A DNA stretch of 44,278 bases from Dimargaris cristalligena. Taxonomy: Eukaryota. Under the pieces are notes generated by a model. The model saw nothing but the letters and a program-made list of their open reading frames with translations, had not been told where the DNA came from and searched no databases. The stretch covers positions 1 through 44,278 of the forward strand of contig ML002309.1 in the NCBI GenBank assembly GCA_003614675.1, given 5' to 3'. Made by a program: the position numbers and the translations under genes. Below, one piece after another: positions 1 through 32,631 of this stretch. The stretch's first letter is position 1. The number at the start of each line of letters is the position of its first letter.

Positions 1-501
1 AAAGAATGGGTTAAAAGGAAAGGGAAAAAAACTGGATATACCAGATAAAAAAGCCGCTTCATACCTTATATATAAATATAATAATCAAATAGTAATAATT
101 CATACCTGTGGCAATCAAGGGGACACTCCACCTTGCCACACCAGTTATATATGCATGGGGGACTACTCCAAGGGAGGCCCTGAGGGGAAACTACATAACT
201 AAGCTAATAATAGGGAGGGCCGGGTGGTCCTCATAGGAGCGGAGGCTTCCATGGGAACTGGAAGACACTAAGATTACCTAGGAGTGAGTAGTGCAAACTC
301 TGGGAGGGTCCAGCCTAGGAGAGGATATATATGATGTCCGGCCCATTAGGACTGGGGGTACAATATGGCACTATATGGCCCGTTAGGATAGCAATCATTT
401 AGCGGACAATTAGGTCAGATTAGGAGGGGCAACAAGTTAAATAACTCATGAAGATACCCTACTTCCATTAATATTTCCAGCCTTTAAACCTAGTACGGAC
501 A
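1..501. repeat. Possible end of a CpG-depleted repeat (LTR- or transposon-like), truncated by the window edge
   Basis: Only about 7 CpG counted by eye in 500 bp of moderately GC-rich DNA, with many TpA/TAG. The segment ends in ...GTACGGACA (TGT... on the minus strand), resembling an LTR terminus. No coding signal and no second copy in the window. Confidence 0.25.
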
Positions 502-687
502 TTTTATGAGTCTTAAAGCTATATTATCCCAGTAAAATGGAATGCTTAAATGCCCTTGCAATCAACCACTTGCTTATGGGACCAGCTGGTATGATGTTTC
601 ATGGTGAGAGCCAGGCAGTAGTGTGACAAGACTCTTTGGATTAAATACAGTATACTAAGTTCATTTTTCGCATGTATATGTACCAGT

Positions 688-1745
688 CTGGTTGACTCTT
701 TCCTTTGAAAAGTTGTCAAACTCTATTCTGCCGTACATATATACTATGCATGCAATCTACTTTATGAGGCCATTCGGGCCACTTCCGGGGGGCTACTATT
801 AAGCCACTGTCCGTAAAAATCCAGGCCAAGCACAAGTCAACTTTAGAACACCTCATACCAATGACAATACCACAAATAGTATTTTTGTCTGTTGAGGTTA
901 TATAAATATGACTGTCCTCGATATCAATCGGAGTACTAGGCCAAGTGTCCCCAGACGGCTATTGTAAGTAACGGACAATACCATACCTGACCGCAATCGA
1001 CACTCCCCGTTTATCAGACGACAAATTTATTATGTACATTCGTTCTAGACCTCGCTAAATTAATATATTGGGATTATTTTTACGCTCCCGTTCAATATAG
1101 CTCTGCCAGTCGTTTTTAATCGTGAGCCCTTCGGACTAGTAAGGTATGGGCATCGAAACCTCTAAACCAAGGTTTTTGCAAATGCATCAGAACTAGCCCG
1201 TTTAAATCATTCTTATAGCTTATTTCCGGCGAGAATACAAACCCACGCGCAACACACATTATTTAATACGCCTGAACTAATTTGTCTTCTGCAGCCATAG
1301 CCAACAAAGGGACTTAAGCCAGCGTAGTAATGAACTGCAGTTTAAAGTGACCAGTTCCGTCATTTTGACCTGATCCTAGTTACAGGCAGTGAACTCCAGC
1401 CTTGCAGCCATTCGGACCTCTCCTCACGGATAGTTTGGCTCAGACCGCTAACTACTAAAGGGCCCATTGGCCCTACTTGGCATATACGGGCGTTTACCGA
1501 GCCAACTCATGTTATTCCCTACCATGTCAGGTTACGACGCACCTCAAGGCTCCTAGTGAAATAGTCAAAACCACTACATTTGTTGAACAGCGTATCCTCG
1601 GTAGTGACTAGTGGATCCAAGTGAGACGGGCCAATGTTAATCAGTGCGTTCTCTCCATAGAAAATCGCCTGATCATCTAATAAACCGTTAGTCCTAAATT
1701 GAGCCTCGCCTGTATTTATACAGTGCTGAGTGACACCCCCTTCAC
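688..1745 (-). pseudogene. Decayed gene remnant, paralog A of the 4752-5590 segment
   Basis: Colinear nucleotide similarity to 4752-5590, e.g. TTAAGCCACTGTCCGT..AAATCCAGGCCAAGC and TTTAAAGTGA..AGTTCC.TCATTTTGACCTGA. Shared minus-strand peptides (QFRTNG..FYGENAL, QVKM.EL.TL, SPEI.YKN.LN, LGLDF.GQWLNSSP) are interrupted by stops and frameshifts. Confidence 0.6.
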
Positions 1746-2235
1746 AGTACCAGGCTTGGGTAGCTGCCAAACCGCTTTGGCTTCTTTCTCAGACTGCTTT
1801 GAGGCCACAATGACGGGACCCACCTTGCCATATTTAGGGGTGCTCGAGAATTCAGACTGGCTGGTTGTGAGGGCGCTGGAACTCATGGTGGATGCTGAGA
1901 AGAATCTCAGGAAATATATACTGCCGATTGTCGAGGTATTTGGATTTAGCAGTGAACATGATAATGTATTTATTTAAAAATAAAAATAAAATCAGAAAAT
2001 ATGGACTTCAATGAGTAAACAATTGTCAGTTATCCTTCGCGGGATTCTAGCGTATTGCAAATGCCAATTCGAATAAGTCAGAAATGACAATTACGTTGTA
2101 AGGTTAAATACAAAAGGATGAGAAGCAAAGCTACCACATATGTCTATTGGATCTACATCAACGATAAAATAAATTATAAGTCATTAATCGCAGCAATGTT
2201 ATAAATGGAATCCGGCATAATAGACGTTGGCAGGA

Positions 2236-2797
2236 TCAAAGCATGCCAAGTATAGAACCGATGAATAAGCCACGGGCGGGACGTGGTATCAGTCGCTGAT
2301 AAACAGGCATGGTGTGCTGGATGGCACTACATATACTCAATTCCAAACAGTTCCCCTTGCCTAAACGTCTATATATGGTTGAGATTCGGACCAACTGTAT
2401 AAGGGTATCATCCTTGCTGGTAAGACGAAATAGGCGGGTGATTAAATTATAATTAGTAATATGTGCCTCATCGAACAGATTTTTCATTATACAACCTAGT
2501 TGAACCCCTCCCATATTGATATCACCCCTCGTGTTCCCTTTTGAAAACTTTCTAGTCGAGGCGACTCCCGCGGCTGCGTTGAAGAGAAAGCCTGTCCTGT
2601 AGATTTTGATAAGGAACTAATGCATAGAGATTGTCCATCGAAGCAGCCATTTCTCCCATGAAACCAGGGATTAGCTCCAATCGAGTAATAGGTAGTTCAT
2701 CAATGGACGACAAAGCCGTACGGGTGGAGACTAACAGCCGATAGGATGATCGGGTGGGAAAAGCAGTCGGGGCAGGATTAGTGGAATGGGAAACCAT
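2236..2797 (-). pseudogene. Possible fragmented hypothetical gene (two protein-like ORFs in different frames)
   Basis: ORFs 2552-2797 and 2236-2514 have globular, helical-looking composition and lie 37 bp apart on the same strand. No family recognised. Confidence 0.25.
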
Positions 2798-3580
2798 CTC
2801 AACTAGATTTGTGCAGTTGCTCCTTTTCGAAAGCCAGCTGGGCGGATATCGCGTAAAATGAGGGATATTTGATTCATGTTATCCTATTGTTACGATCAGT
2901 CCGAGTGGGACTAGGACCTGCCATGGCAACCATGTAGGGTTTCGAGTGGGATGATGACTAGGCATGCAGAATTAGATATAAAGTTTAAAATAGTATTTTA
3001 ATAAGACATAAGGTTTGCCGGGTGATGTAAATCTATATCTAATTTATACCTTGGACTAATCAATGTAATAATGAGGCCGATAGCCGCTCCTCGTCCTTTG
3101 GGCGTTGCATTTATGCTGAGAGAATCAGGTGATCTCGACGTCACTAGTAGGGTCGATTTCTCCCCATGGTTGCACTATGTGCCTAACCCCTACCAGTCGC
3201 AGTATTTTCTAAATAGGTGGGCGATCTGGGGTAATTGATCGCCAAAGTTGATCCTATAATTTAATGAAGTCGGGCGTAACTGCACGAAGAACCAATTGGG
3301 CCGCCAGTTAACAAAGTACCCGATTTACCCCACCAACGACTAACCTATGTACATGGCTTTGGTGAGATGGGGCCAGGTTATATTCGAGGATATCGAGATG
3401 GGCGCTAAAACTAGGGAGTGGCTTTGGATGCCCTACGTAAGTCATGCCGGAAACGATTTTCATATTGGGGATAGGACTGGGCGATTAACTAGGGTAATCC
3501 CGGCTTTCATACCTATTGCACATCCCTAAATTCCGATACTCCAAGACTCAACAGCAGGCCACAATAGGTTATTTGGGGGG

Positions 3581-3587
3581 TATATAA
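3581..3587 (+). promoter_or_regulatory. TATA box of the secreted-protein gene
   Basis: TATATAA about 190 bp upstream of the ATG at 3773, followed by a pyrimidine-rich leader. Confidence 0.45.
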
Positions 3588-3772
3588 CCAGGCCTGTCCT
3601 CCTCTGTTTAGTTACATCGCATCCAGTGGTACACCTATCATTCCAGCGCTCCCTTGTCCCTCACTCCCCCCCTCTCCCGACCATACTATTCACTTCGGCC
3701 ATAATTTAATTAACGACCACTCTGGTATTCTCATTCCAGTCTTTCTTTCAAGGCCATAGTCTCTTTTTAATC

Positions 3773-4192
3773 ATGAAGTTCAACCTGTCCTTTTTCATCA
3801 TCACTATCCTAGCCCCTACCCTTGGGTCAGCCGCACCAGTGGCCCCCGAAGTTCCCCAAAATCCCTCTGAACTGCTCAAACGTACGCCCGTCGCCTTCCA
3901 TCCCTGCGATCTAGCCCCATCGCAGGTTCCACTAAGTCGCCGAAAGCATTCCAACCACTCCCGCGAACATCGCCATCATTCAGTTCCATTAATCGACTCT
4001 GACCAATACAACCGCTTGTCTAGGCGGACTCCGTCTCCAGTGCCCCTTTCGAAACAGCCCCAACATAAAAATGCCAGCGTAAGCAAAGGAACCAACCGTA
4101 GCTCTGCTCACACAAAAGGAATTCCGAAGAAAAACTCGCACGTTAGCATATTAGTATACAATTCACCAGTTCCTTTCACAGTCCAATTTTAG
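3773..4192 (+). CDS. Small secreted protein, putative Kex2-processed peptide precursor (139 aa)
   Basis: Signal peptide MKFNLSFFIITILAPTLGSA followed by APV. Dibasic sites LLKR, LSRR, LSRR. Upstream TATA box. Confidence 0.75.
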   Translation: MKFNLSFFIITILAPTLGSAAPVAPEVPQNPSELLKRTPVAFHPCDLAPSQVPLSRRKHSNHSREHRHHSVPLIDSDQYNRLSRRTPSPVPLSKQPQHKNASVSKGTNRSSAHTKGIPKKNSHVSILVYNSPVPFTVQF

Positions 4193-4751
4193 TCTACGGA
4201 ACCAGGTTGATTGATAACCTCCACGCTTTAATGTACTGAAATCCTACCGAACCCGCTCTCGTCCTTGTCTTGTTGAGATGAGTGTCCAAAGTCTATTTTA
4301 CTTTGCCGTTAGTTGACATACACATTCCTAGCCTACTGTTATATGCCCCCTACTACATTGCTTATAGTATTTTTGACAGCTCTTTTTTTGCCTGTAAACA
4401 TCCTCTGTACAAGTTATTATTTCCACCACTGCTTATTAATGATGGCAGATAATTTCACAATTAGAATTGAATAAAAACCCAATTTCACGAACGATTGTCC
4501 ATTAAATTACTCATGAATATGCTCTGATTTCACCATTAAAACCGGTCTTTAAACCCCCCGTTGATAAACGCCATGGGCCCCACAGTTATTGAATCCGAGT
4601 GAAATGGCACAGTTAAATGACTATATAGTCGAATATCTGACTATGGGGCCCACGGGTACCTCATCCCCTTGAGAGGGCCAGAAAAGAATATGAGTAGTCC
4701 CTTCGAATCTAACCTTTTTAATCAAATCCATTCGAGGCTTATTTATGTAGC

Positions 4752-5590
4752 CTGGTTGGGTATTTTTCTCGTTGAGTTGTTTGGCTCTATTCTGCTGTAT
4801 ATGTAGACTGCGCGGAATCTACCTTGCAAGACCTTTAGGGACAATCTTTGGGGGCTGCTGTTAAGCCACTGTCCGTGGAAATCCAGGCCAAGCGCGAGCC
4901 TACGTCGGATTACCGCATACCACGGAGAATACTCCACGGACTATTTTTGCCCCATGGGTTTATACATATATGCATGAGTGTCCTCGTTATTATCAGGATA
5001 CTAAACCGGGCTTTCCTAAATGGTACTTATTAGTACCGAACAATGCCGGATCTGGTCTTAATTGATACTCCCCATTTATCGAACATCGACTTTAACCACG
5101 TGCCAATATTCCCTCGAGATCAAGCTAAAGTAGTATATTGGGGTCTTTTGTTATCTCGTTCAATCCAGCCCAGTCAGTTGTCACTAATTGTGCGCCCCTG
5201 GGACTGGCATGGTACCCACATCGCAACCACTGTGCTAGTAGTATTAGCTAATCATTTTTGAATCAGTCTGTTTAATTCATTCTTGTAAGCTATTTCCGGA
5301 GATGGTGTATTTGAATGAGCCATGCGCCCAAACTGCGTCTGCTTCTTTGGCCATAGGTAGCAGAGGGATTCAAGCTGGTGTACTAGTAGGCTGTGCTTTA
5401 AAGTGATGAGTTCCATCATTTTGACCTGAAGTCACCCACAGTCAGTGAGCATTAGTCTTGTAACCTTACCAGCCTCTCCTCGAGGACTGTATAGGCCAGG
5501 GCGTTTTCTCTGTAAAAAACACCTAAACGTTTGCTCGGCCTTTAGTCCCGAATTGACCTTTGTTTATATTTCCCCGACTGTGTGGACACT
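4752..5590 (-). pseudogene. Decayed gene remnant, paralog B of the 688-1745 segment
   Basis: Same homology blocks as paralog A. Lacks roughly 200 bp that are present in A (about 1430-1645). Contains internal stops. Confidence 0.6.
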
Positions 5591-6053
5591 GAGGCGGTGT
5601 ATTATTATCCTATGGGTATATTGGGTATCATTTTCTGTCCTTCGTGCTTTTTAAGCAAGGCCGGCCTAGGTTTTAATATGGGCCATAGTCTAGTCGGACA
5701 CCACAGCCAAAAGAATTTTCAGTCAATTTAGAACGAGAAATCCCCAATAATGGCAGATTGGCATATATCCGACCACTCCCTGAAAAAGCCGAGCGGGATT
5801 TTTCCAGAGAAGGAGTAGCTGGATATATCAGCTATTATATGGAACCGATAACGCCCTTTCCAACTTTATGGTGTTGGATATCCGTATTATAGTATTTCTG
5901 CCCTTACTTCCAGTTTAAACTTCGACCATGGGTTGTTGCCCTTTAGTCTGGGGACATGCCAAAGTTAACGGAGCGTGCGCGCCACTCCTTGTTTTTCATT
6001 TGCCCTTCTCCCCACTTCCTTATTGACTTCACCTTACTACTTTCTCTTACTAC

Positions 6054-7589
6054 ATGGACGGCTTGTTCCAATTCCGGGTTCATTTCGTGCAATGGCCTGT
6101 CCTCAGGCCCTCCCAACCACCCGCCCGCTTGGAAGTCACCGGCTGGCTGGGCGACCAGTCTCAACGAAGCCAATGCGGGTACTCTCACATGCCCGCATCA
6201 CCCATGTCCCACTGGAGAGCCCCAGTCTCTCCGGGTGCCCCACCTCCGCACTGGTGCTGGTCCCTATGTTTAAATCGGGACCACCTCCATCTACCCCACC
6301 CTTTCCTCCGCATCGACATTAGTCGGGTTCCGAATCTACCCCATACGGATGTGGACCTATCTATTTCGCCCCACATTGAATCGGACCCCCGCACAGTGTG
6401 GTCACCTAAGCCAGCCGAACCGCCCTCTACGATAATGGCGAGTCTCCAGCTGGACCTCCGGGAACTCAGCGGACCCTTCCGAGACCACCGGGTGATCTGG
6501 CGACTAGCGGATAGTATGTCCCCGGGAGCGGAGGCCAACCACTTCCGACGGGATATCCTGGAACTGGCGCTATCGCTTGAACCCATGCTGGATCGAGAGA
6601 GGGATTATCATCCCCATAGACCTATGCCCATTTCCACACCAGGCAGTTACGCCAGTTCTAGTCAAACGGAGCCATTGCCAACGCCCCGCCAACTAACCCC
6701 GCGGCCTTGTTCGGATAGCCACCATCCCCTCCTCGATATCTATATTCACATCCACGCCTTGGCCCTGCGCATTTCGCCGGTTCGGGCGGTCTACATTCGT
6801 TATCAACACCCTATGCTCGGCGTATCCGTTCCCATTATTACGTTCCCACCCATTGACATGGTCGAGACGCCGGCACCGGTGCACGGACGAATTAATAGGA
6901 GCGGCCATAACAACCAAGGACCAACCGCCATACCGGCTACCATCATCGCCAATGGTAGTCGGACTTTTGCCTCTGGCCTGGACCATCTCCAATTAATAAC
7001 CCAATGGAAACGGACTCCTTTGAAATTCCAAGTGTATTCGAAGCCGACCCCCACGGAACACCGGTATATCGGCTATGTTCGGATCCGCTACCCCGCCCGC
7101 CCCTCTACCAAGCGCTTACCGGCCCGGGAAGGCAACTCAGGGACGGGTGACCTCCCGGGGTACGCTAACCTACGTAGCCGCAAGGAAATGGCCTTCCACT
7201 CTTATCCGGTCATTGGTTGTACCGTTGGTCCCGACGGCCAGCGCCAAACTCTGGTGGTCGGCCAACTAACGCTGGGTCTGAAAATCACCGAGTCGGACCC
7301 TATTCCGTCCACCCCATCGCTTCCAATATCAATAGTTAATTCCGGCGGTACATTGACTCGATTGGCCCCTTCGAACGGGGATGTCAGCCCCCCATCGTCC
7401 ACCGACTGTGAAATCTCGGCGGCAAGTCAGTACACCCGGGTACTGACCGATCACCTCGCCCGAGTGGTAGAATTGGAGCAGGCATATCAGACTACACTTG
7501 GTCAATACACCGGCTACGAGACCACGGATCAAATGACCCGGGGGACTATATCGGCTAATGAAAGGCGTATCCGCGACTGCCGGATGTAA
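6054..7589 (+). CDS. Two-C2-domain protein resembling the N-terminal half of centriolar C2CD3 (511 aa)
   Basis: Long GC-rich ORF. Beta-rich block 1 runs FQFRVHFVQW...VTGWLGD...LELALSLEP. Block 2 runs LDIYIHIH...VYIRYQHP...ITQWKRTPLKFQVYSK...IGYVRI...GQLTLGLKI. Short helical C-terminus. The CDS itself is well supported; the family call rests on recalled motifs. Confidence 0.55.
   Translation: MDGLFQFRVHFVQWPVLRPSQPPARLEVTGWLGDQSQRSQCGYSHMPASPMSHWRAPVSPGAPPPHWCWSLCLNRDHLHLPHPFLRIDISRVPNLPHTDVDLSISPHIESDPRTVWSPKPAEPPSTIMASLQLDLRELSGPFRDHRVIWRLADSMSPGAEANHFRRDILELALSLEPMLDRERDYHPHRPMPISTPGSYASSSQTEPLPTPRQLTPRPCSDSHHPLLDIYIHIHALALRISPVRAVYIRYQHPMLGVSVPIITFPPIDMVETPAPVHGRINRSGHNNQGPTAIPATIIANGSRTFASGLDHLQLITQWKRTPLKFQVYSKPTPTEHRYIGYVRIRYPARPSTKRLPAREGNSGTGDLPGYANLRSRKEMAFHSYPVIGCTVGPDGQRQTLVVGQLTLGLKITESDPIPSTPSLPISIVNSGGTLTRLAPSNGDVSPPSSTDCEISAASQYTRVLTDHLARVVELEQAYQTTLGQYTGYETTDQMTRGTISANERRIRDCRM

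Positions 7590-7737: not shown

Positions 7738-7777
<40 letters not shown>
7738..7777. repeat. Compound (CA)n(TA)n microsatellite
   Basis: Read directly from the sequence. Confidence 0.95.
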
Positions 7778-9870: not shown

Positions 9871-11633
9871 CTACAGATCGATGGTATTGGCTGTCGGGGG
9901 GATTAACGATTTCGCATTGGCCACGATCGTCATATTAGGAGCATAGAGGTTGATAGACTCGGGGTAAAAGTCCTCAGAGGGAATCAAATCCTTGCCCAGT
10001 CCCCCGGCCATGGTGTTCGCCGAGGCGGCCAAGTCATTGTCTAGTATTCCCGTGGCTGCAGAGGCAGCGGCAGCTACCGCCATTTCGGTCGTGGAGGGAT
10101 TGTAACTGCTGTTGTAGGTTTGTTCATGGAGATACCACCGGCCTTCCCGAGTGATACACCCAGCGGGTAGAGGGTCCTGGGTGTCCGTGCCCGGCGGACA
10201 GAGACTGAATGTGATGGCGATGGCATAACTCCGTTTGTCGTTGACCCGACAGTGCATACTACCCACCAGCGCCTGCTGGATGTTAACCGCCAGCGGTTCC
10301 TTCAGCACACACCGAACCTGCTGCCAGCGGGACTGGTCGACATCCCAACGGTCGTGGACTGGGAGGCCCGGGGATGAGTGGCCGCAAAAGGCTGGAAATG
10401 GAGGTCGAACCATCCGGCCACTCCGTGCACGATTCCGGTATACCGGCAGGTCCAGGCAAACGGAACGGTAAAGTCCTTCAGTTCGTCGACCGTGACCGTG
10501 GCGAAATCGACAGTATAGCCGTGCGGGGCGGGACTCGCCAAGAGCGAGCGGGGATCGAAGTAACCCACCACCGGCATACGAAAGTATTCGCCCAGGGCGG
10601 TCCCGAACAGCGGAGACTGATCAACCCCGGCTGTTCCCAGAACCGCACCTTGGTCATGGTTTCGGTCCATAGGGCATTGTCCGTGAAGGGCGCCAAATGA
10701 ATCGTCCCATGCGACGGTAAAATCACCCCGCCGGGCTTGAGGTACCGGTCGCGCGCCAGAACAAAGGATTCCAACTTCCGCTCATGCACCAGCAACACCC
10801 CAATGGGCTCGGAAATAATCACGTCCACCTGCGGGATGCAGATGTGCGGGTCCTCCATTCAGGCATTAACCACCTCCACTTGGTTGTGCAGCCAGGGGTT
10901 GCGGGGTTGGGCATTGCGACGGGGGTCGGCCGCTTCGAGAACGGTACGGATGTTTTGGGCCATGTCCGAGGCTTCGACGGCGTATACTTTGGCAGCACCC
11001 GCCTGGACGGCAAAGTACGAGAGAATACCTGATCCAGCACCCACATCGAGGACCTTCTGGTCGTGGAATACGGCGGTGCTGTTCAGTAGGATGGCCTCGT
11101 GGTAGGTAGCGGCACGTACGTAGTCCTGTAGCATATTTTGCTGTATTTATTTTTATATCCAAAAAGAGTAATATCCGAGGGTTCGGCAGATGGGATGACC
11201 ATGAGGGGGGCGCATGTGGTTATAAAGGTTAGCAAATATTTCCTAGAGGTGGCATATTAATCCATAATACTTATCATGAATAAACTTATGAACGCGCTGG
11301 CACTGAGATTCAACATACCATGGACACTGTCCAAACTTCTGGACGGGTACCAGAGTATGCCCTTTGCCCCACACAGCCCAGCCCCACCTGCCCTTAGATT
11401 CTTCGATCGGGACTAGTGTCCGGCAATCAACCCCGCTACGGGTTTCCTTCCCGCTAACCATGTCCACATGCAAAAAATAAAGCACCTACCTGATGTTGAA
11501 GCTGACCGTAATACTGAAAGTAGGCGGGGCCCCGGGGACTTTCCAATTCGCCCTCCTCGGCCATGATGGGATTCTGCTTCGACTCCTTCGCCTGGGCCGG
11601 AGGGGTGGAGGTGGGCTGTGCTGCGTTGGTCAT
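9871..11633 (-). pseudogene. CARM1: Disabled CARM1/PRMT4-like protein arginine methyltransferase; exon 1 11633-11490, intron 11489-11141 (GTAGGT...ACAG), exon 2 11140-9871
   Basis: The spliced junction gives [20 protein letters not shown] (CARM1 signature), followed by [41 protein letters not shown] and WQQVRC. In-frame TGA at 10859-10861; frameshifts at about 10628 and 10327. Confidence 0.88.
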
Positions 11634-14577: not shown

Positions 14578-17022
14578 TTAGTGTAGGGTTTGGGGACGAT
14601 GAAAGTAGTGCGGTTCGGAAGCCCCGTGGTTAATCCGCGTAACCTCCGACGACTCGGCGGCCAGGTTAAGCAAAGCAGGTGGGTGGCTGCTTGGCCAGTC
14701 GGAGAAATCCAAAGGCAATTGGGGAGACACAGGGGTGGATCGGGCGGTTACGAAGGAAGGCAAGTGGTGGGCACTGGCATCCATTCCGGGAAAGGCGGCC
14801 AGCGAAGTCGGGGGGAAGGACGGCGGCGGCAGATGAGTCGAGGATAGCAGTGGGCTAACGGACATCGCGACTTGTTCAGACGTAGTTCGCTGATGCAGCG
14901 GACGCTGAATGGCTGGAGGTGCAAACGGGGAGGTGTCGTAGAGCGAGTGGCGGGAGGCCATACCCGGTCGACCACCCTGGGGAGCGGCACCGAACCCCGG
15001 GGGAGGCCGGCGACAGACCCGCTGCAACTGCTGCTGCTGATTCTGTTGGCGTTGGGACTTGAGAAAATCTAGGCTCACTTGCCAGTGCGGGTCAAAGGGC
15101 GAATACCAGCGGGATCGGTTATTCATGGCAGCCGTGGGGGTGTGGGTGGACGGAGTCCCGGCAGGATGACGGATAGGTCCAGCGGGAGCCCGTCGTGGGG
15201 CAACCGGACTTAAGGCCGAGGCAGGTCGAGAAGGGATCAGGTCGGGTGACACACCAGCGGAGCGGGAAATGGGCTCAATCAGCTGGGTATTCGAAAAACT
15301 GGTCAGATCGGGCGTAGAGCGCATGGGAGTAGTAGTAAACGATGACGCCAGCGAGGATGGGGGAAAGAACGATGGCTGCAACGTGTAGCGGAATTGGGCA
15401 ATGGGCTGATCCAGGGGCTGGGAATTCACAGTCAACTCAGCTACGGGGGGCGGGGGATTTTTCCATGTGTCAGGGGCGCCGCCGGGCAGAAGGTCGTCGG
15501 CTTCGGGTGACGGGTAGCCGGGAGGAGACGCTAAACGGGACTTGCTCGGACCAGAGGCCATCGTTGGGCCCGGAGTCTGAGTAACAATCGAGGCAAGAGA
15601 AGCGGGTTTAGACATAGGCGGTGAAGAGCTATGGTGCTTGGGGGGGACTGGAGAACTGGACTGGGTGGCTGGGTGGGCGGGGGACGACACGGAAGAGTTG
15701 CCGACATCGGCGGGGGCGGTGGAAGCTCGGTAAGAGCGGATTGAGGACAAGTTCGGGGAAGAAGCAGGTACCGATGGGGTAGGGGTGGGCATAGACTGAC
15801 AGGAGGTTGGAACGGCATGGGTATCCACGACAGGGTTCGCCGTGGTCGTTGGCGCAACTACTTGGTTACGCCGCTGACTGCGTTTCCGAGATTTGCCCTT
15901 TTTGGATATCGGCGCGGTGGGAGTCACAGGGTGCGATTGGGAACATGGCAGCGATTTAACCTGCGGCGTGTCCCTGGCCAAGGCTGGGATAACGTTCGCA
16001 GCGGCGGGCAGTGTTAGTGATTCAGTCGCAATCGTATCATCAGCTGAGGGGCATTCTTCCGGGCTTTGGCTGAGCTTACAGTGATCCGCCAGCGGTTTAG
16101 TTACGGGGTCAATAGTATCACTTTGGGTATCCCGAACAGTGGTGACTGGTTTAGGTGACACGGACGGGCCGGTTGGTAAAGAGGGAGAGGGGCCAGATGT
16201 TGGTGCTGATCCGGCAAATGGGCGCGTGACCAGCGGTTCCTGAAGGCCTATTGGGCTGCCTGACCTTACCCAAAGGGCTGCGGGCGGATAAGTCGGCGAT
16301 ACCGGAGAGGAGAGGGGCTGGCAAAGGTGAGGGGGGGCGGCGAATGCTGGGATAATTTCATCGTGATCATGCTCGGATTTGGCAGTAGCCGCGGATATTG
16401 GTGGTGGTGGCTGCGGTGGCGTGTCGGTTGAAGAAGAAAATGGACTGCTGGATTCGGTGGAGGTGGATCTCCCGGGAAAGTCGTTGGCGGACTCGGGCCG
16501 TTCTTCGACATTGGGACAATCGGGGGTGTTGGCCTCCTGTTTCTCGACCCAGTTGGGTTCTTCGGAAGACGACTCCATAATACCAGAGTTGGCAGCCGCT
16601 TCGGTGTCCTCCGCCCCGGCCGAATCCTGTCCCTCCAACCGTCTAGCTAGGAGACCATTGAGTAAAGCCTGCCAAAGCGACTGGTCGGAAAATAGGATAT
16701 CGGTACAGTAGGCCAAGTGGGACCGCCTGGTGGGCAACCGGTGGGTGCGAACGACCACTTTCGTAAGGATCGACCAACTGCGTAAAAGTATCAGGCCCAG
16801 CAGCAGCAGCAAGGACCCCACCATCAGAGCGGAAGCCATGGGCGGAGCGGTGATGAAGTGGTAAATATAACTGGTGGTAAGCATACTAAACAAGAAAAGC
16901 AAAAAAGTAAAGTCGAGGGGCTCAGCGACGGTGGTGGGGTTCTCAGTGAGTGGGGTTGGAGATAACGCCAGGTGGTGGTGGTCCCCCTCGCGCAACTGAT
17001 TCGATAGCGACAGGGCTACCAT
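14578..17022 (-). CDS. Hypothetical protein with two N-terminal transmembrane segments and a long Pro/Ser/Thr-rich disordered tail
   Basis: ORF of over 800 codons with GC-rich coding composition. Hydrophobic segments FTFLLFLFSMLTTSYIYHFI and ALMVGSLLLLLGLILL, basic patch KKGKSRKRSQRR, aromatic island RWYSPF. First ATG at 17022; the true 5' end is uncertain. Confidence 0.8.
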   Translation of the reverse strand: MVALSLSNQLREGDHHHLALSPTPLTENPTTVAEPLDFTFLLFLFSMLTTSYIYHFITAPPMASALMVGSLLLLLGLILLRSWSILTKVVVRTHRLPTRRSHLAYCTDILFSDQSLWQALLNGLLARRLEGQDSAGAEDTEAAANSGIMESSSEEPNWVEKQEANTPDCPNVEERPESANDFPGRSTSTESSSPFSSSTDTPPQPPPPISAATAKSEHDHDEIIPAFAAPPHLCQPLSSPVSPTYPPAALWVRSGSPIGLQEPLVTRPFAGSAPTSGPSPSLPTGPSVSPKPVTTVRDTQSDTIDPVTKPLADHCKLSQSPEECPSADDTIATESLTLPAAANVIPALARDTPQVKSLPCSQSHPVTPTAPISKKGKSRKRSQRRNQVVAPTTTANPVVDTHAVPTSCQSMPTPTPSVPASSPNLSSIRSYRASTAPADVGNSSVSSPAHPATQSSSPVPPKHHSSSPPMSKPASLASIVTQTPGPTMASGPSKSRLASPPGYPSPEADDLLPGGAPDTWKNPPPPVAELTVNSQPLDQPIAQFRYTLQPSFFPPSSLASSFTTTPMRSTPDLTSFSNTQLIEPISRSAGVSPDLIPSRPASALSPVAPRRAPAGPIRHPAGTPSTHTPTAAMNNRSRWYSPFDPHWQVSLDFLKSQRQQNQQQQLQRVCRRPPPGFGAAPQGGRPGMASRHSLYDTSPFAPPAIQRPLHQRTTSEQVAMSVSPLLSSTHLPPPSFPPTSLAAFPGMDASAHHLPSFVTARSTPVSPQLPLDFSDWPSSHPPALLNLAAESSEVTRINHGASEPHYFHRPQTLH

Positions 17023-17498
17023 AAGCCAGGGACGTACGCCGGTGAGGTCCACACCGCAGGGTGCATAGACAGCCAGGTAAAAGGTAGTTTGGGGGGCTTA
17101 GTAATAGGAAAAGGTAGAGTACCCTCTAGCGGAGGAAGCAACCCAAGCAAGACTAAAATACGAGAAGGAGGGGGGAATCGGGGCAATGAAAAGGGGACCC
17201 GTGGGCGACGGCGAGCGTCAGTCGGCTCAACGTCCAAATAAAGGGTATCCACACAAGGACACTATCCCGGAAATAATTATATAGAACCGATAAAACGAGC
17301 GGACGAGGAAAGTGGAGTCGGAATGACGGGGTAGCTAGACAGTAGAGACAAGCGGGGAGGGAATTACAAAAAGGTTGGGAAAAGAAAGAAGTGTATAAAA
17401 CAACGGTGAGTTTTTTAAATAAGCAATAAAGCCCATCGACACCACTAAAAAGAGTCAACGAGGCTCATAGTGCGGCGTTTGGGCTGCTTTGGCAATGC

Positions 17499-26623: not shown

Positions 26624-27910
26624 TTAGGTGCGCCGTATCCGATACTGGTAGCGGCGGAATTGGTGGAGTAGGAACGTATTGATGGTCTTGGATAGTTTAA
26701 AAATGGGTAGGCGGTCGGGTAAGAACCGCACCTGGATCGTTGGATCCGACCGGCGGGGCAGCGGTCGGGCGATGTTGGCCATAATAATGTACATTGGAAA
26801 TAAAAAGGCAAACACCCCGGCACTCACGAACTGGGTGGAAAAAAACGTACACAATGTACATGGTAGTCCGAATCCCAGGAAGTAGGCCCAATGGCCCTCC
26901 AAATAATCCAACCGTTTCTCGAACGACCAATTCTTGTTGATCCACTGGTATTCGAAACAGTAAAAGGCGTATATCCAGCAGAAGTAGATAAACGAGGCCA
27001 CGGGGCCCACCCAGGGGATGAGATAAATGAGGCTGGCCCACACCACATAAGTAAAGAAGAGTAGGATGCGGTAGATTTCGCTGGCGATGCTTTGGAGAAG
27101 CCCGGAGTAGGTAATGGGTTGGTGGGTGGGCTCGCCGCCGCGCATACTGTACACACGGTCGGCAATTTCCTGGTACCAAATGGCATTGAGCAGAAAACTA
27201 AGGCAGTATACGGGGTACAGCCAAAAAGCATTATAGGCAAACGCAATGGTATAGGCCAAAATCTCCAGGGCCCAGCGGTGGGAAGGTAGCGACGTGGGGG
27301 ATGTTGCCGCATTACCCGATGCTAATAACGGGGAGGACGACCAAGGGGTGGTGGTGGTCACCAAGGTGGATTCCATCGAGCCAGGGGAGACTAAATTAGC
27401 CACGTATTCCGCGACATGCAGCAGATACCAGTTGAGCCTTAGCAGTACCACTTGGTAGAATAGGATACTTCCGAGGAAGAGAATCCCGTTTAAAAACACG
27501 CATTTAAGCACCCGCTGCTGGATCGTTTTGGACCCGTACACCACAATAAGACTGGTCGGCCAGGCCGAGGCATCCTTGACGCCGGCCCACACGAACCAGA
27601 GCTGCTGGCGTATATAGTCCGCCAGGGACCGGGCGTAGGACTGCGGTGGTGATGTAGAGGACGCCGGGTGGGATTTAGCCTTGTTGGCGTGGGTCTTCTC
27701 GTGGGGGAAGGACGACGGTCGCCGAGGGGGTTTAGCATGGGCTATGGAGTCGAAGTCGGAGGAGCTGATGGAGCCGGGGCCAGCGCACCGGGGCGGTTGG
27801 TAGGGAAGGGGCTGGGAGCGGGGCCCGCCGTCAGGGTCACCACTACCACCGCTACTGCTGCTGCTGTTGTCGTTACCGCGACCCTGGGGATGGGCTGGGG
27901 ACCGGTGCAT
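26624..27910 (-). CDS. EI24: EI24 (etoposide-induced 2.4) family ER membrane autophagy protein, 428 aa
   Basis: KCVFLNGILFLGSI, FWLYPVYCLSFLLNAIWYQEIAD, YAFYCFEYQW, RLDYLEGHWAYFLGFGLP and FAFLFPMYIIMA are EI24 motifs. The ATG at 27910 lies downstream of the microsatellite. Confidence 0.93.
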   Translation of the reverse strand: MHRSPAHPQGRGNDNSSSSSGGSGDPDGGPRSQPLPYQPPRCAGPGSISSSDFDSIAHAKPPRRPSSFPHEKTHANKAKSHPASSTSPPQSYARSLADYIRQQLWFVWAGVKDASAWPTSLIVVYGSKTIQQRVLKCVFLNGILFLGSILFYQVVLLRLNWYLLHVAEYVANLVSPGSMESTLVTTTTPWSSSPLLASGNAATSPTSLPSHRWALEILAYTIAFAYNAFWLYPVYCLSFLLNAIWYQEIADRVYSMRGGEPTHQPITYSGLLQSIASEIYRILLFFTYVVWASLIYLIPWVGPVASFIYFCWIYAFYCFEYQWINKNWSFEKRLDYLEGHWAYFLGFGLPCTLCTFFSTQFVSAGVFAFLFPMYIIMANIARPLPRRSDPTIQVRFLPDRLPIFKLSKTINTFLLHQFRRYQYRIRRT

Positions 27911-27941
27911 TGGGTCTGCTTTGCTTTGAGGAGAGTCCAAT

Positions 27942-27943
<2 letters not shown>

Positions 27944-28000
<57 letters not shown>

Positions 28001-28017
28001 TGTGTGTGTGTGTGTGT
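27944..28017. repeat. Long compound (GA)n(GT)n microsatellite just upstream of the EI24 start
   Basis: Read directly from the sequence. Confidence 0.97.
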
Positions 28018-29258
28018 TGCCAATGGGAGCAAGGAATGGGCCGACCAGGGCCACAACGCGGTTGATAAACAGTGCGATACTGCGGAACTGGAGAGGGACT
28101 GGACTTTCTCTAGCCAAGGTAACACAGGGCGATTTTGGAAGCGCGGGTCGTGGAATGGGCGAGTCAATGGGACCTTGGATGCGTAAGGGATGAAAAGAGG
28201 GGAGTCGCTTTGTCTTTAGGAATGCACTGGGCGCCGCCGTGTCGGTTCCTTCTACTGGCTATGGGAGAGGTGTTGTGTCAGGTGTATACAGGTGCGGGCT
28301 TAGAGGCTCCCGGGGATCGAGTGACGAGCGTGAATGTACAAAATAAACGGGTTCAAGTGAATGAGACGGTGGTGAAAAGAGAAGAGACCACTTGGTAGCC
28401 AGGCAATAGCAGTAGTGTTAATATCGGCAGTATCGTTCTCTCGGCGATACTAAACAGTCGACAGTCCAAGTGGTTCGTATTATTCCAATTAAACGTGGCC
28501 CACCCAATGTTAGATATAATTGATTAGAAATGTAAAATAATGGCAGCAGCAACAAACGAAGGCATTGGTGAGTTTGAGGAGAGGGAGGATGCTTTAATAG
28601 TGGGTGGTGTTAATAATAAAGAATGGTATTGGCAACTCATATATACACACATTCTCTCTCATAAAGAACAGGCTGCTTATATTTGGCTGCTTACTCAAAC
28701 ACGGAGGGATTCTTTCCGCTAGGGCCATCGCTGGTGATGATGGTGCATGTTAGTGCCGTGCGGGTCGTCAGCCTCCCCATCAGCTGATTGCCGCAATGTT
28801 GTTTGAAAAGTATCAAGGGATGTGCACTCAAAGGGACATCTTTACGCAATCTTGGCTGGTGCTTGCCCACCCGGCGCAGGGTGGTAAGCAGTAGTTATTA
28901 TCGCTTGTTGGCAGGCTCCGTATCGAGGAGACTGAGTTATCCCTTTGGACTATAGATCCACGGGTCTCTTGGTTAATAGGGCCAATACGAAGTAAAAACA
29001 TTAGAAATTGCTTAGATTGATTTATCCATGTATATTCCGTAGCACATTAATAGCGGTGGCACCAGTGTGTTATCGTTAACTACCTTTTTCTTTGCCGCAG
29101 GAGAAAGATGCACCCTATTTTCTATCCAATACTTCACCCACCTAGCTAATGGGCTCAACCCATGGCTTACTATTCCCGTTTCGAAGGGCCTCATTCCCTT
29201 TCCGTATTACCCTCTTTACCATCAAACGGCTACTAAAAATAGTATTCCCTCAATGTAA

Positions 29259-31453
29259 ATGGAAGTGCTTTCGTCCCCCGCCACTCCTACCGAAGCCGAG
29301 TCCCCCGATTCCGACCAGTCGGGCCCCGCCGACTTCGTTATTTTGACTTCGTCGCCGCCAACCTCGCCCGAACTTCCCCATTGGACTTCAGTATCACCAC
29401 CAGCCACCCCTGCGCTTAATTCTGCTAGCACCCCTCGGCTGATCCGGACAACGACGACCAATAGTGCGGCCACCCCCACAATTACCTCTACACGCCGGCT
29501 TTTGCATTCTCCCAGCGGCTCTCTTCTACTCCGCTCACCCTCTGCCCCGGCGACTACCAATAGACCCCGCCCTGCGCCGGGCAATGGTGCCTTATTTCCC
29601 TTTGCCCAGCCAGACCCTAGCCCTCGCGATACCGCCATCGATGAAAACAGCGGTGGCCCCTCCGTGCCTATCGTAAGCGATTACTTCCGGTCATCGGCCG
29701 CCCTTGGCGTTGCCCCGCCCTCTCCCCGCCAACAATCCCAGGATGACGACTTCCAAATCATCATTAAACGCCCCCGGTTACTTCCTCCGGCCCATCCCAC
29801 TTCGGATGGCCAAGGGTCGTCGTCGACCGATTCAGCAGGTCCCTCCACCTCGCTAGGTGATAATGGGGGCCGGTCCGAAGCCGACGCCGACGACGATTTA
29901 ACGGCCACTCCCTGCATCATTTGCTTCGATCCCATGACCACCGCCGGCCGCCACCGTATCGTTTCTCTCCGTTGTGGACATCTCTTCGGACGGGGCTGTA
30001 TTTTACAATGGCTTAATCCGCGTATACGACCGAAATGCCCCGGTACCCAACAGCGGAGCTGTCCGCAATGCAAGCAGCCCGCCAATGCCAAGCATATTCA
30101 CCCCATTTTTGCCAAACGGGTCGTCCCCGCTGATACTAGCGAGTTGGAGGCGATGCAGGCCAAAATCCACGAGGCCAATCAGCGGTGTATCCGGGCGGAA
30201 AGTGAGCTGGAGCAGGTGCAGCTGGCCCGGGATTTCCAAAAGAGTCAGGTCAGTGACCTGATGGTGCGACTCGAGTTTCTGCAGAGGCAAAACAATATTT
30301 TAAAGTCGGCTTTGGCTAGCCGGCCTAGCCTAGGACCTGGTCCAAGTATCACTCCCGGGGAGCGGCTGGGCCAATCCCCAACAAACGGGGAAATCCTGGA
30401 TCTAACCGGGGCGGTGTTGGACTTTGTGGGTTCCCCAGTTATTTCCCCGTCGTTAAAGGCCTCCTTAACCGAAACCATCATGATTTCCCGCCAAAAAAAC
30501 GCCTGCCGGATCATCGCTTACAACTCCTTTGATCAAAGCTTGCTAATTAGTACCCAGGCCCAGCAATTAGCACTGACCTCCATAAGTTCCACCACGTCCA
30601 CCGTGCCTACCCGTATTCCCTCCACGGGGTCCTCCCTGCCTTTCGGCGTTGTCCGGATATCCCTTCGCAATACCTCCCACCATGAATATTTAGGCATTCA
30701 TCATAAAGCGATCCGTGACATTGCCGTCTGCCCCTACGACGGCCAGCGGATTTTGACCACGGGTCTAGACCGGACCGCCGTAGTCTATTCCCTCGCCACA
30801 CGGACAGTCGTCCAGAGCTACCCCCTCGAAGCCCCCGGTTGGTCGTGTATGTGGCATCCGCGCTGCCCCCATTATTTCCTAGTGGGACTGGCCAATGGTT
30901 CAGTGGTACTCGTGGATATGCGCCGCACGACCCCGGCCGAGACTCAGGTCAGAATATTGGAACCCCCCGCCAGTCGCACCCCCATTCACTCGCTGACTAC
31001 CATCACCGGCACCTCCGATACCGCGGGCGATCCACCACTGCTGGTCGCGGGGGGCTCCGACTGGGTATTTCTAGTGCCCCTAACCACCGATAGTGACGGT
31101 AATCACAGCGGCGGGCCTCCGCCGAATAGTCCCGCTTTTCAACCGAACCTGATTCGCACACCAATGGGGTTTTCGGCTTACTGCGCCGTCTATGATCCTG
31201 AATCAGCCCGCCTTTTGATATCCTACCGCAATCCGCCCCGAAAACGCCTCGTTCACCACGTTTACCAGCCCTTGGCTAATCCGTCTCTCCCCGATTCGGA
31301 TCCCCCAACGGTCCTTCCGGAACACGATACTCCCGGTTGGAAATTATCTTTTGTTATCGAACTTTCCAGTGCCCAAATCGCCTTGGCTCGTACTACCCTG
31401 TTTACATATCCCCTTGCATCACCATTAGCGCCTTTACCAGTCCCGCCATTACT

Positions 31454-31484
<31 letters not shown>

Positions 31485-31820
31485 ACATCATCAACACCAC
31501 CGTCACCATCATCACCATCTCAACCTCCGGCACCTTGTTCACCCCCATCACCCTCGGCTTCAACCCCTGACAGGCTGGCGTTTCTAGCTTTAGGTGATTC
31601 TGCCACAGCCTCACTGGCCCTCTGGGAACTGGCCAACTCAAGAGAGAATTCCACGGACTCAGCGGGCCCTTGCCAACTGGATATAGAGCCCAATATAGCA
31701 TTAAACGAAGCCCCGGATCATTATCTGGATGTTAAGTTTTGCTCTCACCCCAGTTTTGGGCATTTGCTGGTCGGTTTATCCGATACCCAAGTCTGCTTGT
31801 ATCGACTGGAGTATGGCTAG
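29259..31820 (+). CDS. RFWD3: RFWD3-like RING finger / coiled-coil / WD40 E3 ubiquitin ligase (853 aa)
   Basis: CIICFDPMTTAGRHRIVSLRCGHLFGRGCILQWL...CPQC matches the RFWD3-type RING. Followed by a coiled coil and WD40 region (HHKAIRDIA, ILTTGLDRT, WSCMW, GLANGSVVLVDMR). Confidence 0.92.
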
Positions 31821-32315
31821 GTATCCAGCCAACCCCAGACCTTGGCCATTTACACCCTCGCTTATTCATAATTTTGTAAAAATATATTATTTGGGGCCTA
31901 TGATGTGTAGTATCCCGTTTTGTGAATTAATTTATAAAGAATTACTATAAGTAAGAATGTGATGTATAGGGGAGGTAATCCAAAAAGGTGAAATTGATAA
32001 AATGGTCAACAGTTTATAGTGGTGTGGCGTAAATGAGTAAGGGTCGGTTCAATGATCGATTACATTCTACGTTTTTATGCTATCTTTACCTAAGCGCACT
32101 AGAAGACCCTGGTAAATTGCCTGAGGAGGACCCCTCTATTTAGGTGGCTGAGTTTTAAACAGCTGTTAAATAACTGGAAGGCATTGAAACCGATGCGATT
32201 GTTTCAGTCGACAGCCTTGATGGCTGGTTGGCTTGTTGCTATTGGCCGAGCTAGGAGAACCCAGAGAACTGGTATTGTGGACTTTACCCAGCCTAAGCCC
32301 CAGCTAAACTCTTTC

Positions 32316-32342
32316 TATCTCTCTCTCTCTCTCTCTCTCTCT
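32316..32342. repeat. (CT)n microsatellite upstream of the kinase gene
   Basis: Read directly; a (CA)n run follows at about 32434-32452. Confidence 0.9.
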
Positions 32343-32631
32343 AGTGTTGGCTTAGCCCTTTAAGTGTTTTTAGTTCAGATAAGCCGGTCACAAATAATAT
32401 TTCCGTTTCGCCTCTCCCAAACCCATTTGTTATACACACACACACACATACACATCCACTTTACATCAGCGGTATCTACGTCCTTGGAATTCCATGTCAC
32501 TTTCCCTGTTACCATGCCCAATGATTAACCGTTTCTTCCACAATTTTATTGTACAACACGTTTCAATTCCATTAACAACCCTACTCCATACGGTTTCTTA
32601 CTAACTTGACCCTGTCGCGACTCTACGCCCT

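What the first reader, a model, noticed from the sequence alone, without database searches (positions are those of the whole stretch)
6054..7589. Miniaturised C2CD3-like centriole protein in a probably non-flagellated fungus
Seen: an intact 511-aa ORF with two beta-rich domains (about 6054-6590 and 6730-7295) and a short helical tail. Recalled knowledge: the N-terminal C2 of vertebrate C2CD3 has the pattern L.V..V.W..KPP...VRWWGE...LQVSLALEP; here it is FRVHFVQW..RP..PP..VTGWLGD...LELALSLEP. The next C2CD3 domain has VEYHFP...IEHWW...LTFQIY.K.TP....IG.V...GPLKV; here it is IRYQHP...ITQWK..PLKFQVYSKPTP....IGYV...GQLTL. C2CD3 (about 2000+ aa; C. elegans SAS-1) is a distal-centriole protein generally confined to centriole-bearing lineages. 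Some zygomycete-grade fungi (Basidiobolus, Coemansia) have ring-shaped nucleus-associated organelles interpreted as centriole relics. Inference: this may be a retained structural component of such a vestigial centriole/spindle pole body, kept intact while neighbouring genes decay.
Basis: partly seen in the sequence, partly recalled or inferred. Interest (0 to 1): 0.8.

Follow-up and report, generated by a model that had tools for sequence, protein, structure and literature searches.

The report
Orphan two-C2-like-domain protein, weakly CEP120-like
A real but species-restricted gene of the non-flagellated fungus Dimargaris cristalligena encodes two beta-rich, C2-like domains whose only detectable resemblance is a borderline one to the centriole protein CEP120, not C2CD3, so a centriole relic is possible but unproven.

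Summary
The 511-codon ORF at 6054-7589 (+) is real. It is intact, far longer than chance allows, and has a coding signature in frame from about codon 76 onward. It is also intact in a second strain of Dimargaris cristalligena, a non-flagellated mycoparasite of the Kickxellomycota.

At sequence level it is an orphan. An exhaustive phmmer search of 1.84 billion representatives found only its own cluster. Pfam gives nothing above threshold, including C2_C2CD3_N, C2 and the Cep120 family DUF3668.

The only sequence lead is a borderline, collinear match of domain 2 to the third C2 domain (C2C) of CEP120 (PDB 6flk and 6ewp, E 0.013 and 0.033, 18.6 bits). Two control ORFs from the same window reached 14-15 bits, so this is only a little above noise.

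ESM Atlas leads point the same way. Feature neighbours are C2-type families, many of them ciliary. The two nearest structure clusters are CEP120 clusters, at TM 0.30-0.36.

Both AlphaFold single-sequence models failed (pLDDT 32-35), so the fold is untested.

The specific C2CD3 reading is not supported. I favour a strongly diverged, shortened CEP120-type C2 protein, at about 0.4. A lineage-specific beta-sandwich protein unrelated to centrioles is nearly as likely. The genome could not be surveyed for other centriole genes.

The parts
6054..7589 (+). Intact ORF of 511 codons plus stop. It is a predicted protein already present in public databases and is unnamed or 'hypothetical'.
   Evidence: One search finds the exact sequence in NCBI, UniRef and EukProt.
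5990..6053 (+). Pyrimidine-rich tract directly upstream of the first ATG. It may be a core promoter or 5' UTR; this is inference only.
   Evidence: Read directly from the sequence.
6204..6206 (+). Alternative start codon M51, used by the 461-aa public model of the other strain.
   Evidence: Codons 1-75 lack a coding signal.
6054..6590 (+). Domain 1 (aa 1-179), beta-rich and putatively C2-like.
   Evidence: DSSP strands in the low-confidence model. ESM Atlas on aa 1-200: feature neighbours are C2-type families at 0.90-0.94, and structure neighbours are C2 domains at TM 0.41-0.54. There were no Pfam or PDB sequence hits at E<=10.
6591..6716 (+). Pro/Ser/Thr-rich linker (aa 180-221) with no predicted secondary structure.
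   Evidence: Translation and model.
6717..7295 (+). Domain 2 (aa 222-414), beta-rich, with a borderline match to the CEP120 C2C domain.
   Evidence: 6flk_A at E 0.013 and 6ewp_A at E 0.033. Pfam MAP10_N at E 0.088-0.27 on aa 254-347, below its cut-off.
6717..6860 (+). Best-matching stretch (aa 222-269). It aligns to the first strands of CEP120 C2C (6flk_A chain residues 4-50 and 6ewp_A chain residues 19/20-67).
   Evidence: Alignments.
6990..7094 (+). Second, collinear but individually non-significant stretch (aa 313-347) aligned to CEP120 C2C chain residues 73-107.
   Evidence: domain 2 rows, scores -1.3 and -2.0 bits.
7422..7508 (+). Predicted C-terminal helix (aa 457-485).
   Evidence: DSSP on the low-confidence model. 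This is the region with the strongest codon-usage signal.

Best explanation
This is a genuine, fast-evolving protein-coding gene of Dimargaris cristalligena. It encodes two C2-like beta-sandwich modules joined by a Pro/Ser/Thr-rich linker, followed by one short helix. Its most likely origin is a strongly diverged and shortened descendant of the CEP120-type centriolar C2 proteins, not of C2CD3. By analogy with CEP120, whose C2 domains are thought to be protein-protein modules, it would act as a non-enzymatic scaffold at the spindle pole body or on microtubules. What is shown: the ORF, its coding signature, its presence in two strains and its orphan status. What is only indicated: C2-likeness and the CEP120 C2C resemblance. 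What is inferred: any scaffold role at the spindle pole.
For: 1. It is a real gene. The frame is 520 codons, against at most 251 in 100 shuffles. The ORF's frame scores +56 bits against -53 to -156 for the other five. It is intact in a second strain.
2. phmmer of domain 2 (aa 205-425) against 177,635 distinct PDB sequences returned only two hits at E<=10. Both are CEP120 C2C (6flk_A at E 0.013 and 18.6 bits; 6ewp_A at E 0.033), and no other C2 domain appeared. 6EWP is mouse CEP120 436-634, the C2C domain (passages of PMC5990496).
3. The match starts at the N-terminal boundary of the domain in both proteins, directly after a Pro-rich linker. A second collinear stretch follows. CEP120 also has a Pro-rich linker before C2C (PMC5990496).
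4. By a different method, the two nearest structure clusters to the ESM Atlas's own model are CEP120 clusters carrying DUF3668 (97% and 88% of members). They align at TM 0.30 and 0.36 by query over residues 105-451 and 14-463.
5. ESM feature neighbours of the whole protein and of aa 1-200 are almost all C2-type families: RPGR1_C, C2-C2_1, C2, NT-C2, Aida_C2 and C2_C2CD3_N, at 0.86-0.94.
6. The only Pfam trace is MAP10_N, from a microtubule-associated protein, at E 0.088-0.27 on the same region.
Against: 1. The sequence match is barely above noise. Two unrelated unknown ORFs of the same window gave best PDB hits of 14.2 bits (E 0.2) and 15.1 bits (E 0.18). With the whole protein as query, the CEP120 hit is only 15.2 bits (E 0.074).
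2. The Pfam Cep120 family DUF3668 (PF12416) and C2 (PF00168) do not match at E<=10.
3. Domain 1 has no PDB hit at E<=10.
4. phmmer of the whole protein against 1.84 billion representatives found 1 protein at E<=0.001, which is its own cluster. Word-indexed searches found 0 of 691 longer candidates and, apart from the other-strain copy, 0 of 1585 near-length candidates at E<=10. No orthologue is therefore visible even in other Kickxellomycota, which argues against strong conservation.
5. All Atlas scores are at lead level: TM below 0.5, model pLDDT 0.48, and features mostly at or below 0.94 with fewer than 170 shared features.
6. Both AlphaFold models failed (pLDDT 34.9 and 31.9), and Foldseek on the first gave no hit at E<=0.001.
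7. CEP120's long coiled coil is absent.
8. The two strains differ by 2 non-synonymous and 2 synonymous changes (pN/pS 0.34). That is too few to show constraint.
9. Centriole-biogenesis proteins have been reported as not found in fungal genomes other than chytrids (passages of PMC6559791).
Confidence: 0.4

Rival explanations
1. It is a lineage-specific beta-sandwich (possibly C2-like) protein with a function unrelated to centrioles or spindle poles, for example membrane or haustorium biology in this mycoparasite. The CEP120 resemblance would then be generic or chance.
For: It is an orphan in every large search. The CEP120 match is only 3-4 bits above control noise. No Pfam family passes threshold. 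Composition is unusual: Pro 11.5%, His 4.7%, Lys 1.4%. The top feature neighbour of aa 1-200 is the plant family DUF1005, at 0.94.
Against: A chance top hit would be unlikely to land on the same rare family, CEP120, that the Atlas structure search also ranks first and second. No generic C2 domain (synaptotagmin, PKC and similar) appears at E<=10, although there are many in the PDB. The match respects domain boundaries.
Confidence: 0.35
2. It is a miniaturised C2CD3 / SAS-1-like distal-centriole protein.
For: A cluster in which 91% of members carry C2_C2CD3_N is the third ESM feature neighbour of the whole protein, at 0.88.
Against: Pfam C2_C2CD3_N (PF25339) and C2 (PF00168) are absent at E<=10 on the whole protein and on the N-terminal pieces. 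No C2CD3 appears in the exhaustive phmmer search. That cluster is not among the listed feature neighbours when aa 1-200 is queried alone. PDB and Atlas structure leads point to CEP120 instead. The N-terminal motif lies in codons with no coding signal and outside the 461-aa public model.
Confidence: 0.05
3. The ORF is not a functional gene. It would be a young, decaying or fortuitously open frame that automatic annotation called a protein.
For: It has no homologues outside the species. Non-synonymous and synonymous differences between strains are equal in number (2 and 2). Differences are denser in the ORF (4 in 1536 bases) than in the 2.1 kb upstream (1 in 2135 bases). The first 75 codons have no coding signal. 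One run's contig carries an extra C in a C6 run at 7387.
Against: 520 stop-free codons have a chance probability of about 6e-8. There is a clear frame-specific codon-usage signal from codon 76 to the end. The frame is intact in two strains. The language model recognises domain-like features. The extra C lies in a homopolymer, occurs in one contig only, and comes from a run of the study that may be the source of the assembly, so it is probably an error.
Confidence: 0.15

Closest known systems
CEP120 (centrosomal protein of 120 kDa; Chlamydomonas Uni2 by recall), especially its third C2 domain, C2C (PDB 6EWP, 6FLK)
   Same: Both have tandem non-canonical C2-type beta-sandwiches, a Pro-rich unstructured linker directly before the C2C-like domain, and a helical C-terminus. 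Domain 2 aligns to the start of C2C at E 0.013-0.033, with a second collinear stretch. CEP120 clusters are the nearest Atlas structures.
   Different: The protein has 511 aa against about 986, two beta domains instead of three, and a ~30-residue helix instead of a coiled coil of several hundred residues. DUF3668 (PF12416) does not match. The similarity is not statistically secure (controls). The host has no flagellum or canonical centriole.
C2CD3 / C. elegans SAS-1
   Same: It is a centriolar protein built from C2-type domains. A cluster carrying C2_C2CD3_N is a weak feature neighbour at 0.88. In humans it is a binding partner of CEP120 (passages of PMC6465297).
   Different: There is no match to PF25339 or PF00168 at E<=10 and no reciprocal hit. 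By recall, C2CD3 is 2000+ aa with several canonical C2 domains.
MAP10 N-terminal domain (Pfam PF14924)
   Same: It is the only Pfam family that scores at all, on aa 254-347 against profile positions 7-94 of 144. A cluster in which 46% of members carry MAP10_N is also an Atlas neighbour by features (0.88) and by structure.
   Different: The score is 11.6-13.2 bits against a curated cut-off of 21.5 bits, at E 0.088-0.27. This does not qualify as membership.
Ciliary C2 families RPGRIP1 (C2-C2_1, RPGR1_C) and generic C2 (PF00168)
   Same: They are the nearest language-model feature neighbours of aa 1-200, at 0.90-0.93. Generic C2 domains are structure neighbours at TM 0.41-0.54.
   Different: There are no HMM matches. 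These are leads only, by the tool's own statement.

Membership tests
C2CD3 | N-terminal C2CD3-type C2 domain (Pfam PF25339, C2_C2CD3_N) | tested here: not met
   hmmscan against Pfam at E<=10 gave no hit for the whole protein, aa 1-200, aa 1-180, aa 76-180 or aa 51-511.
C2CD3 | Several canonical C2 domains (PF00168) in a protein of about 2000 aa (length by recall) | tested here: not met
   The protein has 511 aa and no PF00168 hit at E<=10.
C2CD3 | Sequence-detectable orthology (reciprocal best hits) | tested here: not met
   phmmer against 1.84 billion representatives found only its own cluster at E<=0.001. The reverse search could not be run because no C2CD3 sequence was available.
C2CD3 | Localisation to the distal centriole | not testable with these tools
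   This needs microscopy.
CEP120 | N-terminal C2A-C2B region (Pfam PF12416, DUF3668) | tested here: not met
   There was no hit at E<=10 on the whole protein or on any piece. Domain 1 has no PDB hit at E<=10, although CEP120 C2A and C2B structures are reported as deposited (PMC5990496).
CEP120 | Third C2 domain (C2C) | tested here: inconclusive
   6flk_A scored E 0.013 (18.6 bits) and 6ewp_A scored E 0.033. These were the only 2 hits among 177,635 distinct sequences, and they are collinear. Control ORFs reached 14.2 and 15.1 bits. Fold confirmation failed at pLDDT 31.9.
CEP120 | Pro-rich unstructured linker before C2C | tested here: met
   aa 180-221 is Pro/Ser/Thr-rich with no predicted secondary structure. 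The CEP120 feature comes from passages of PMC5990496. It is a weak, non-specific feature.
CEP120 | Long C-terminal coiled coil that includes the Talpid3- and C2CD3-binding regions (human aa 416-894 and 792-986) | tested here: not met
   Only one predicted helix, aa 457-485, precedes the stop at codon 512. The binding regions come from passages of PMC6465297.
CEP120 | Co-occurrence with the core centriole toolkit (SAS-6, SAS-4/CPAP, POC1, CEP135) in the genome | not testable with these tools
   No whole genome is held for this window.
C2 superfamily (eight-stranded beta-sandwich fold) | C2 fold of each domain | tested here: inconclusive
   The AlphaFold models are unusable (pLDDT 34.9 and 31.9). 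Foldseek gave no hit at E<=0.001. ESM Atlas leads favour C2.
MAP10_N (PF14924) | Score at or above Pfam's gathering cut-off of 21.5 bits | tested here: not met
   Scores were 11.6-13.2 bits.

The most novel reading that the evidence does not exclude
Dimargaris keeps a miniaturised CEP120-derived C2 protein as a structural part of a vestigial centriole-like ring in its spindle pole body. Electron microscopy reported such a ring, with nine microtubules, in the related Coemansia reversa, and its composition is described as unknown. This protein would be the first molecular component linking a zygomycete spindle pole body to the ancestral centriole.
Probability: 0.15. Interest if true: 0.8.

Novelty: new variant of a known kind. 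Interest (0 to 1): 0.4.

Why it matters
Passages of PMC6559791 report that proteins needed for centriole biogenesis were not found in fungal genomes other than chytrids. Passages of PMC6070874 describe a centriole-like ring with nine microtubules in the spindle pole body of Coemansia, a relative of Dimargaris, and say its molecular composition is not known.

If this gene is a real CEP120 descendant, the centriole-to-spindle-pole-body transition would have a testable molecular handle. It would also show that a centriole protein can survive loss of the flagellum in reduced form.

If the resemblance is generic, the gene is just one more fast-evolving orphan of a long-branch fungus.

My literature searches found no paper linking Dimargaris to centriole proteins. 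Two papers hold both 'Dimargaris' and 'centriole'. I opened one, PMC6899921, where the two words occur in unrelated passages. The other I judged only from its title, a classification revision. Searches gave nothing closer.

Tried and rejected
- Whole-genome survey for SAS-6, POC1, IFT and similar genes: impossible, because no genome is held.
- AlphaFold2 of the whole protein (pLDDT 34.9) and of domain 2 alone (pLDDT 31.9): both unusable. No alignment could be built, because the only homologue is 99.6% identical.
- Foldseek of the poor whole model against the PDB: no hit at E<=0.001. Generic beta-sandwiches came up, and 6ewp_C ranked 41 at E 0.55. This is meaningless.
- Word-indexed homologue searches: whole protein at near length, only the other-strain copy among 8000 scored candidates. 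Domain 2 against longer proteins, 0 of 691 candidates at E<=10. Domain 2 at near length, only the other-strain copy of 1585 candidates.
- Metagenome contig scan: 83 pattern matches, of which 0 were confirmed relatives.
- Internal duplication: BLASTP of domain 1 against domain 2 gave nothing better than E 23.
- C-terminal tail (aa 426-511): PDB best E 1.2. Pfam gave Glyco_hydro_72 at E 0.067, below its cut-off. Both are noise.
- Sequencing runs: 5 DNA runs from 2 studies hold the stretch, and no RNA holder is listed. Expression and the true start codon therefore remain open.
- Complex prediction with two copies of aa 440-511, testing tail self-association: no answer, score 0.02 against a mark of 0.32.
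- Earlier findings of this scan: nothing for this genome or sequence. The one CEP120 note concerns Naegleria and has no bearing here.
- Hodges et al. 2010 on centriole protein phylogeny is not held.
- Supplementary tables of the flagellar and centriole toolkit surveys (for example PMC8371127 and PMC6559791) and Figure S1 of PMC5990496 were not open to me. They may list Zoopagomycota species or the conserved C2C positions.

Full report
**Observation.** The window holds an uninterrupted ATG-to-stop ORF at 6054..7589 on the + strand, 511 aa long, inside a 520-codon stop-to-stop frame.
- This is not chance. In 100 shuffles of the window the longest open frame was 251 codons, and the composition-based probability of 520 stop-free codons is about 6e-8.
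- A codon-usage log-likelihood trained on five other long ORFs of the window gives +56 bits for the ORF's frame. The other five frames score between -53 and -156.
- The signal is absent in sliding windows over roughly the first 75 codons and clear from codon 76 to the end.
- DSSP on the AlphaFold model shows strands at aa 4-150 and 229-410 and one helix at 457-485. This agrees with 'two beta-rich domains and a helical tail', but at pLDDT 34.9 it is only indicative.

**Organism and surroundings.**
- A 461-aa 'hypothetical protein' of Dimargaris cristalligena matches aa 51-511 at 459 of 461 residues.
- The 511-aa sequence itself is already in NCBI, UniRef and EukProt.
- D. cristalligena belongs to Kickxellomycota, Dimargaritales. 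[quoted passage not shown]
- Downstream there is an (AC)n(AT)n microsatellite at 7738-7777, then a convergent, intact DJ-1/PfpI gene at E 3e-34.
- Further on lie EI24, an RFWD3-like RING-WD40 protein and a protein kinase.
- Upstream, 1-6000 is AT-richer (43-45% GC against 53%). It has no open frame longer than 160 codons and is partly repetitive.
- Nothing shows that neighbouring genes are 'decaying'.

**Homology searches.**
- Pfam gave 0 families at E<=10 for the whole protein.
- Across nine sub-pieces, the only Pfam rows were MAP10_N (PF14924) at E 0.088-0.27 (11.6-13.2 bits against a cut-off of 21.5) on aa 254-347, and a noise hit on the tail.
- C2_C2CD3_N, C2 and DUF3668 (Cep120) never appeared.
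- phmmer of the whole protein against 1,835,955,588 representatives found 1 protein at E<=0.001, which is its own cluster.
- Three word-indexed searches and a metagenome scan added nothing.
- The protein is therefore an orphan at sequence level, even relative to other Kickxellomycota.

**The CEP120 lead.**
- Against 177,635 distinct PDB sequences, the whole protein hits only two chains at E<=10. Both are Cep120: 6flk_A at E 0.074 and 6ewp_A at E 0.15.
- With domain 2 alone (aa 205-425), the same two chains are again the only hits, at E 0.013 (18.6 bits) and 0.033.
- 6EWP is mouse CEP120 436-634, the third C2 domain, C2C (passages of PMC5990496).
- The main stretch (aa 222-269) aligns to the first strands of C2C, beginning at the domain boundary in both proteins and directly after a Pro-rich linker. 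The same paper describes a Pro-rich linker before C2C in CEP120.
- A second, individually non-significant stretch (aa 313-347) is collinear.
- No other C2 domain of the PDB scores at E<=10, so the similarity is not generic C2 similarity.
- Domain 1 has no PDB hit at all.

**Controls.** Two unknown ORFs of the same window gave best PDB hits at 14.2 bits (E 0.2) and 15.1 bits (E 0.18) to evidently unrelated proteins. The CEP120 score therefore sits only 3-4 bits above the noise seen here. On sequence statistics alone it is not secure.

**Independent leads from the ESM Atlas.**
- For the whole protein, feature neighbours at 0.86-0.90 are DUF1005, CTSRT, a C2_C2CD3_N cluster (0.88), RPGR1_C, C2, MAP10_N, C2-C2_1, a cluster with no common family and NT-C2.
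- The two nearest structure clusters to the Atlas's own model (pLDDT 0.48) are CEP120 clusters, with DUF3668 in 97% and 88% of members. They score TM 0.30 and 0.36 by query, spanning residues 105-451 and 14-463.
- For aa 1-200 the feature neighbours score 0.90-0.94 and are again mostly C2-type. Structure neighbours are mainly C2 domains, at TM 0.41-0.54.
- By the tool's own statement these are leads, not tests.
- I weigh the convergence of phmmer and the structure search on the same rare family more than either score alone.

**Structure.** Both AlphaFold jobs ran without a usable alignment and failed: the whole protein at pLDDT 34.9 and domain 2 at 31.9. Foldseek on the first gave no hit at E<=0.001. 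The C2 fold is thus untested.

**Variation.**
- Contigs of a run from a second study (X5) differ from the window at four positions in the ORF. These are W54C and I148F (non-synonymous) and Q326Q and R374R (synonymous). There is one difference in the 2.1 kb upstream.
- pN/pS is 0.34 from 2 and 2 changes, which is uninformative.
- One contig of run X4 carries an extra C in a C6 run at 7387. This is probably a homopolymer error.

**Interpretation.** I read this as a real, fast-evolving gene encoding two C2-like beta-sandwich modules, a Pro/Ser/Thr linker and a short helix.
- The specific C2CD3 reading fails every test I could run.
- The nearest family is CEP120. Membership cannot be claimed, because DUF3668 and the long coiled coil are not met and C2C is inconclusive.
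- 'Works like' is inference. The authors of PMC5990496 consider CEP120's C2 domains to be probable protein-protein interaction modules. A reduced two-C2 protein could therefore act as a scaffold at the spindle pole body.
- A ring with nine microtubules has been reported in the spindle pole body of Coemansia reversa, with its composition described as unknown. This is McLaughlin et al. 2015 as cited in PMC6070874; I did not see the original.
- Chytrids have CEP120 (passages of bioRxiv 10.1101/2025.01.03.631223).
- Centriole-biogenesis proteins were reported as not found in other fungal genomes (passages of PMC6559791).

My odds:

| Reading | Odds |
|---|---|
| CEP120-derived relic | 0.40 |
| Unrelated lineage-specific beta-sandwich protein | 0.35 |
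| Non-functional ORF | 0.15 |
| C2CD3-like | 0.05 |

**Limits.**
- No genome was available for a centriole-toolkit survey.
- No RNA holder was listed.
- No C2CD3 or CEP120 sequences could be obtained for profile-profile tests.
- Supplements were closed.
- All papers were read as passages in 'find' mode or as search listings, not in full.

Noticed in passing
window 1-6000: An AT-richer (43-45% GC), ORF-poor stretch lies upstream of the gene. It holds multi-copy segments: contig depth of 740 against ~171 at 3000-3300, variant-rich patches at 3034-3143 and 3847-3917, and a 174-nt direct repeat at 737-910 and 4799-4972 (71% identical). Both runs also show a contig joint that skips 4893-5397. This is probably degraded repeats or transposon remnants.
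   Followed up: partly
window 3770-4192 (+): A small ORF whose product begins with a signal-peptide-like hydrophobic stretch (MKFNLSFFIITILAPTLGSAAP...) followed by a basic, Ser/Pro/His-rich tail. It has no Pfam hit and could be a small secreted protein of this mycoparasite.
   Followed up: partly
window 7738-7777: A compound microsatellite, (AC)10.5 then (AT)10, lies between the ORF's stop and the convergent DJ-1/PfpI gene. Logan contigs break there.
   Followed up: yes
window 7387: One contig of run X4 has an extra C in a run of six Cs at codon 445 of the ORF, which would shift the frame of the tail. It is absent from the other strain's contig (X5) and is probably a homopolymer error.
   Followed up: partly
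window 14578-17097 (-): An open frame of 839 codons with no Pfam family at E<=0.001. It is another unannotatable large protein in this window.
   Followed up: no
window 26624-34923: A run of ordinary, intact genes: an EI24-family membrane protein (-), an RFWD3-like RING plus WD40 E3 ligase (+) and a protein kinase (+).
   Followed up: partly
window 9871-10620 (-) and 35207-35836 (+): Two further ORFs, of 249 and 209 codons, have no Pfam family. They served as noise controls for the PDB search. Their best hits were a NOL1/NOP2/sun family protein (E 0.2), followed by CARM1 chains at E about 0.3, and BCL-2-like protein 10 (E 0.18), all presumably chance.
   Followed up: partly
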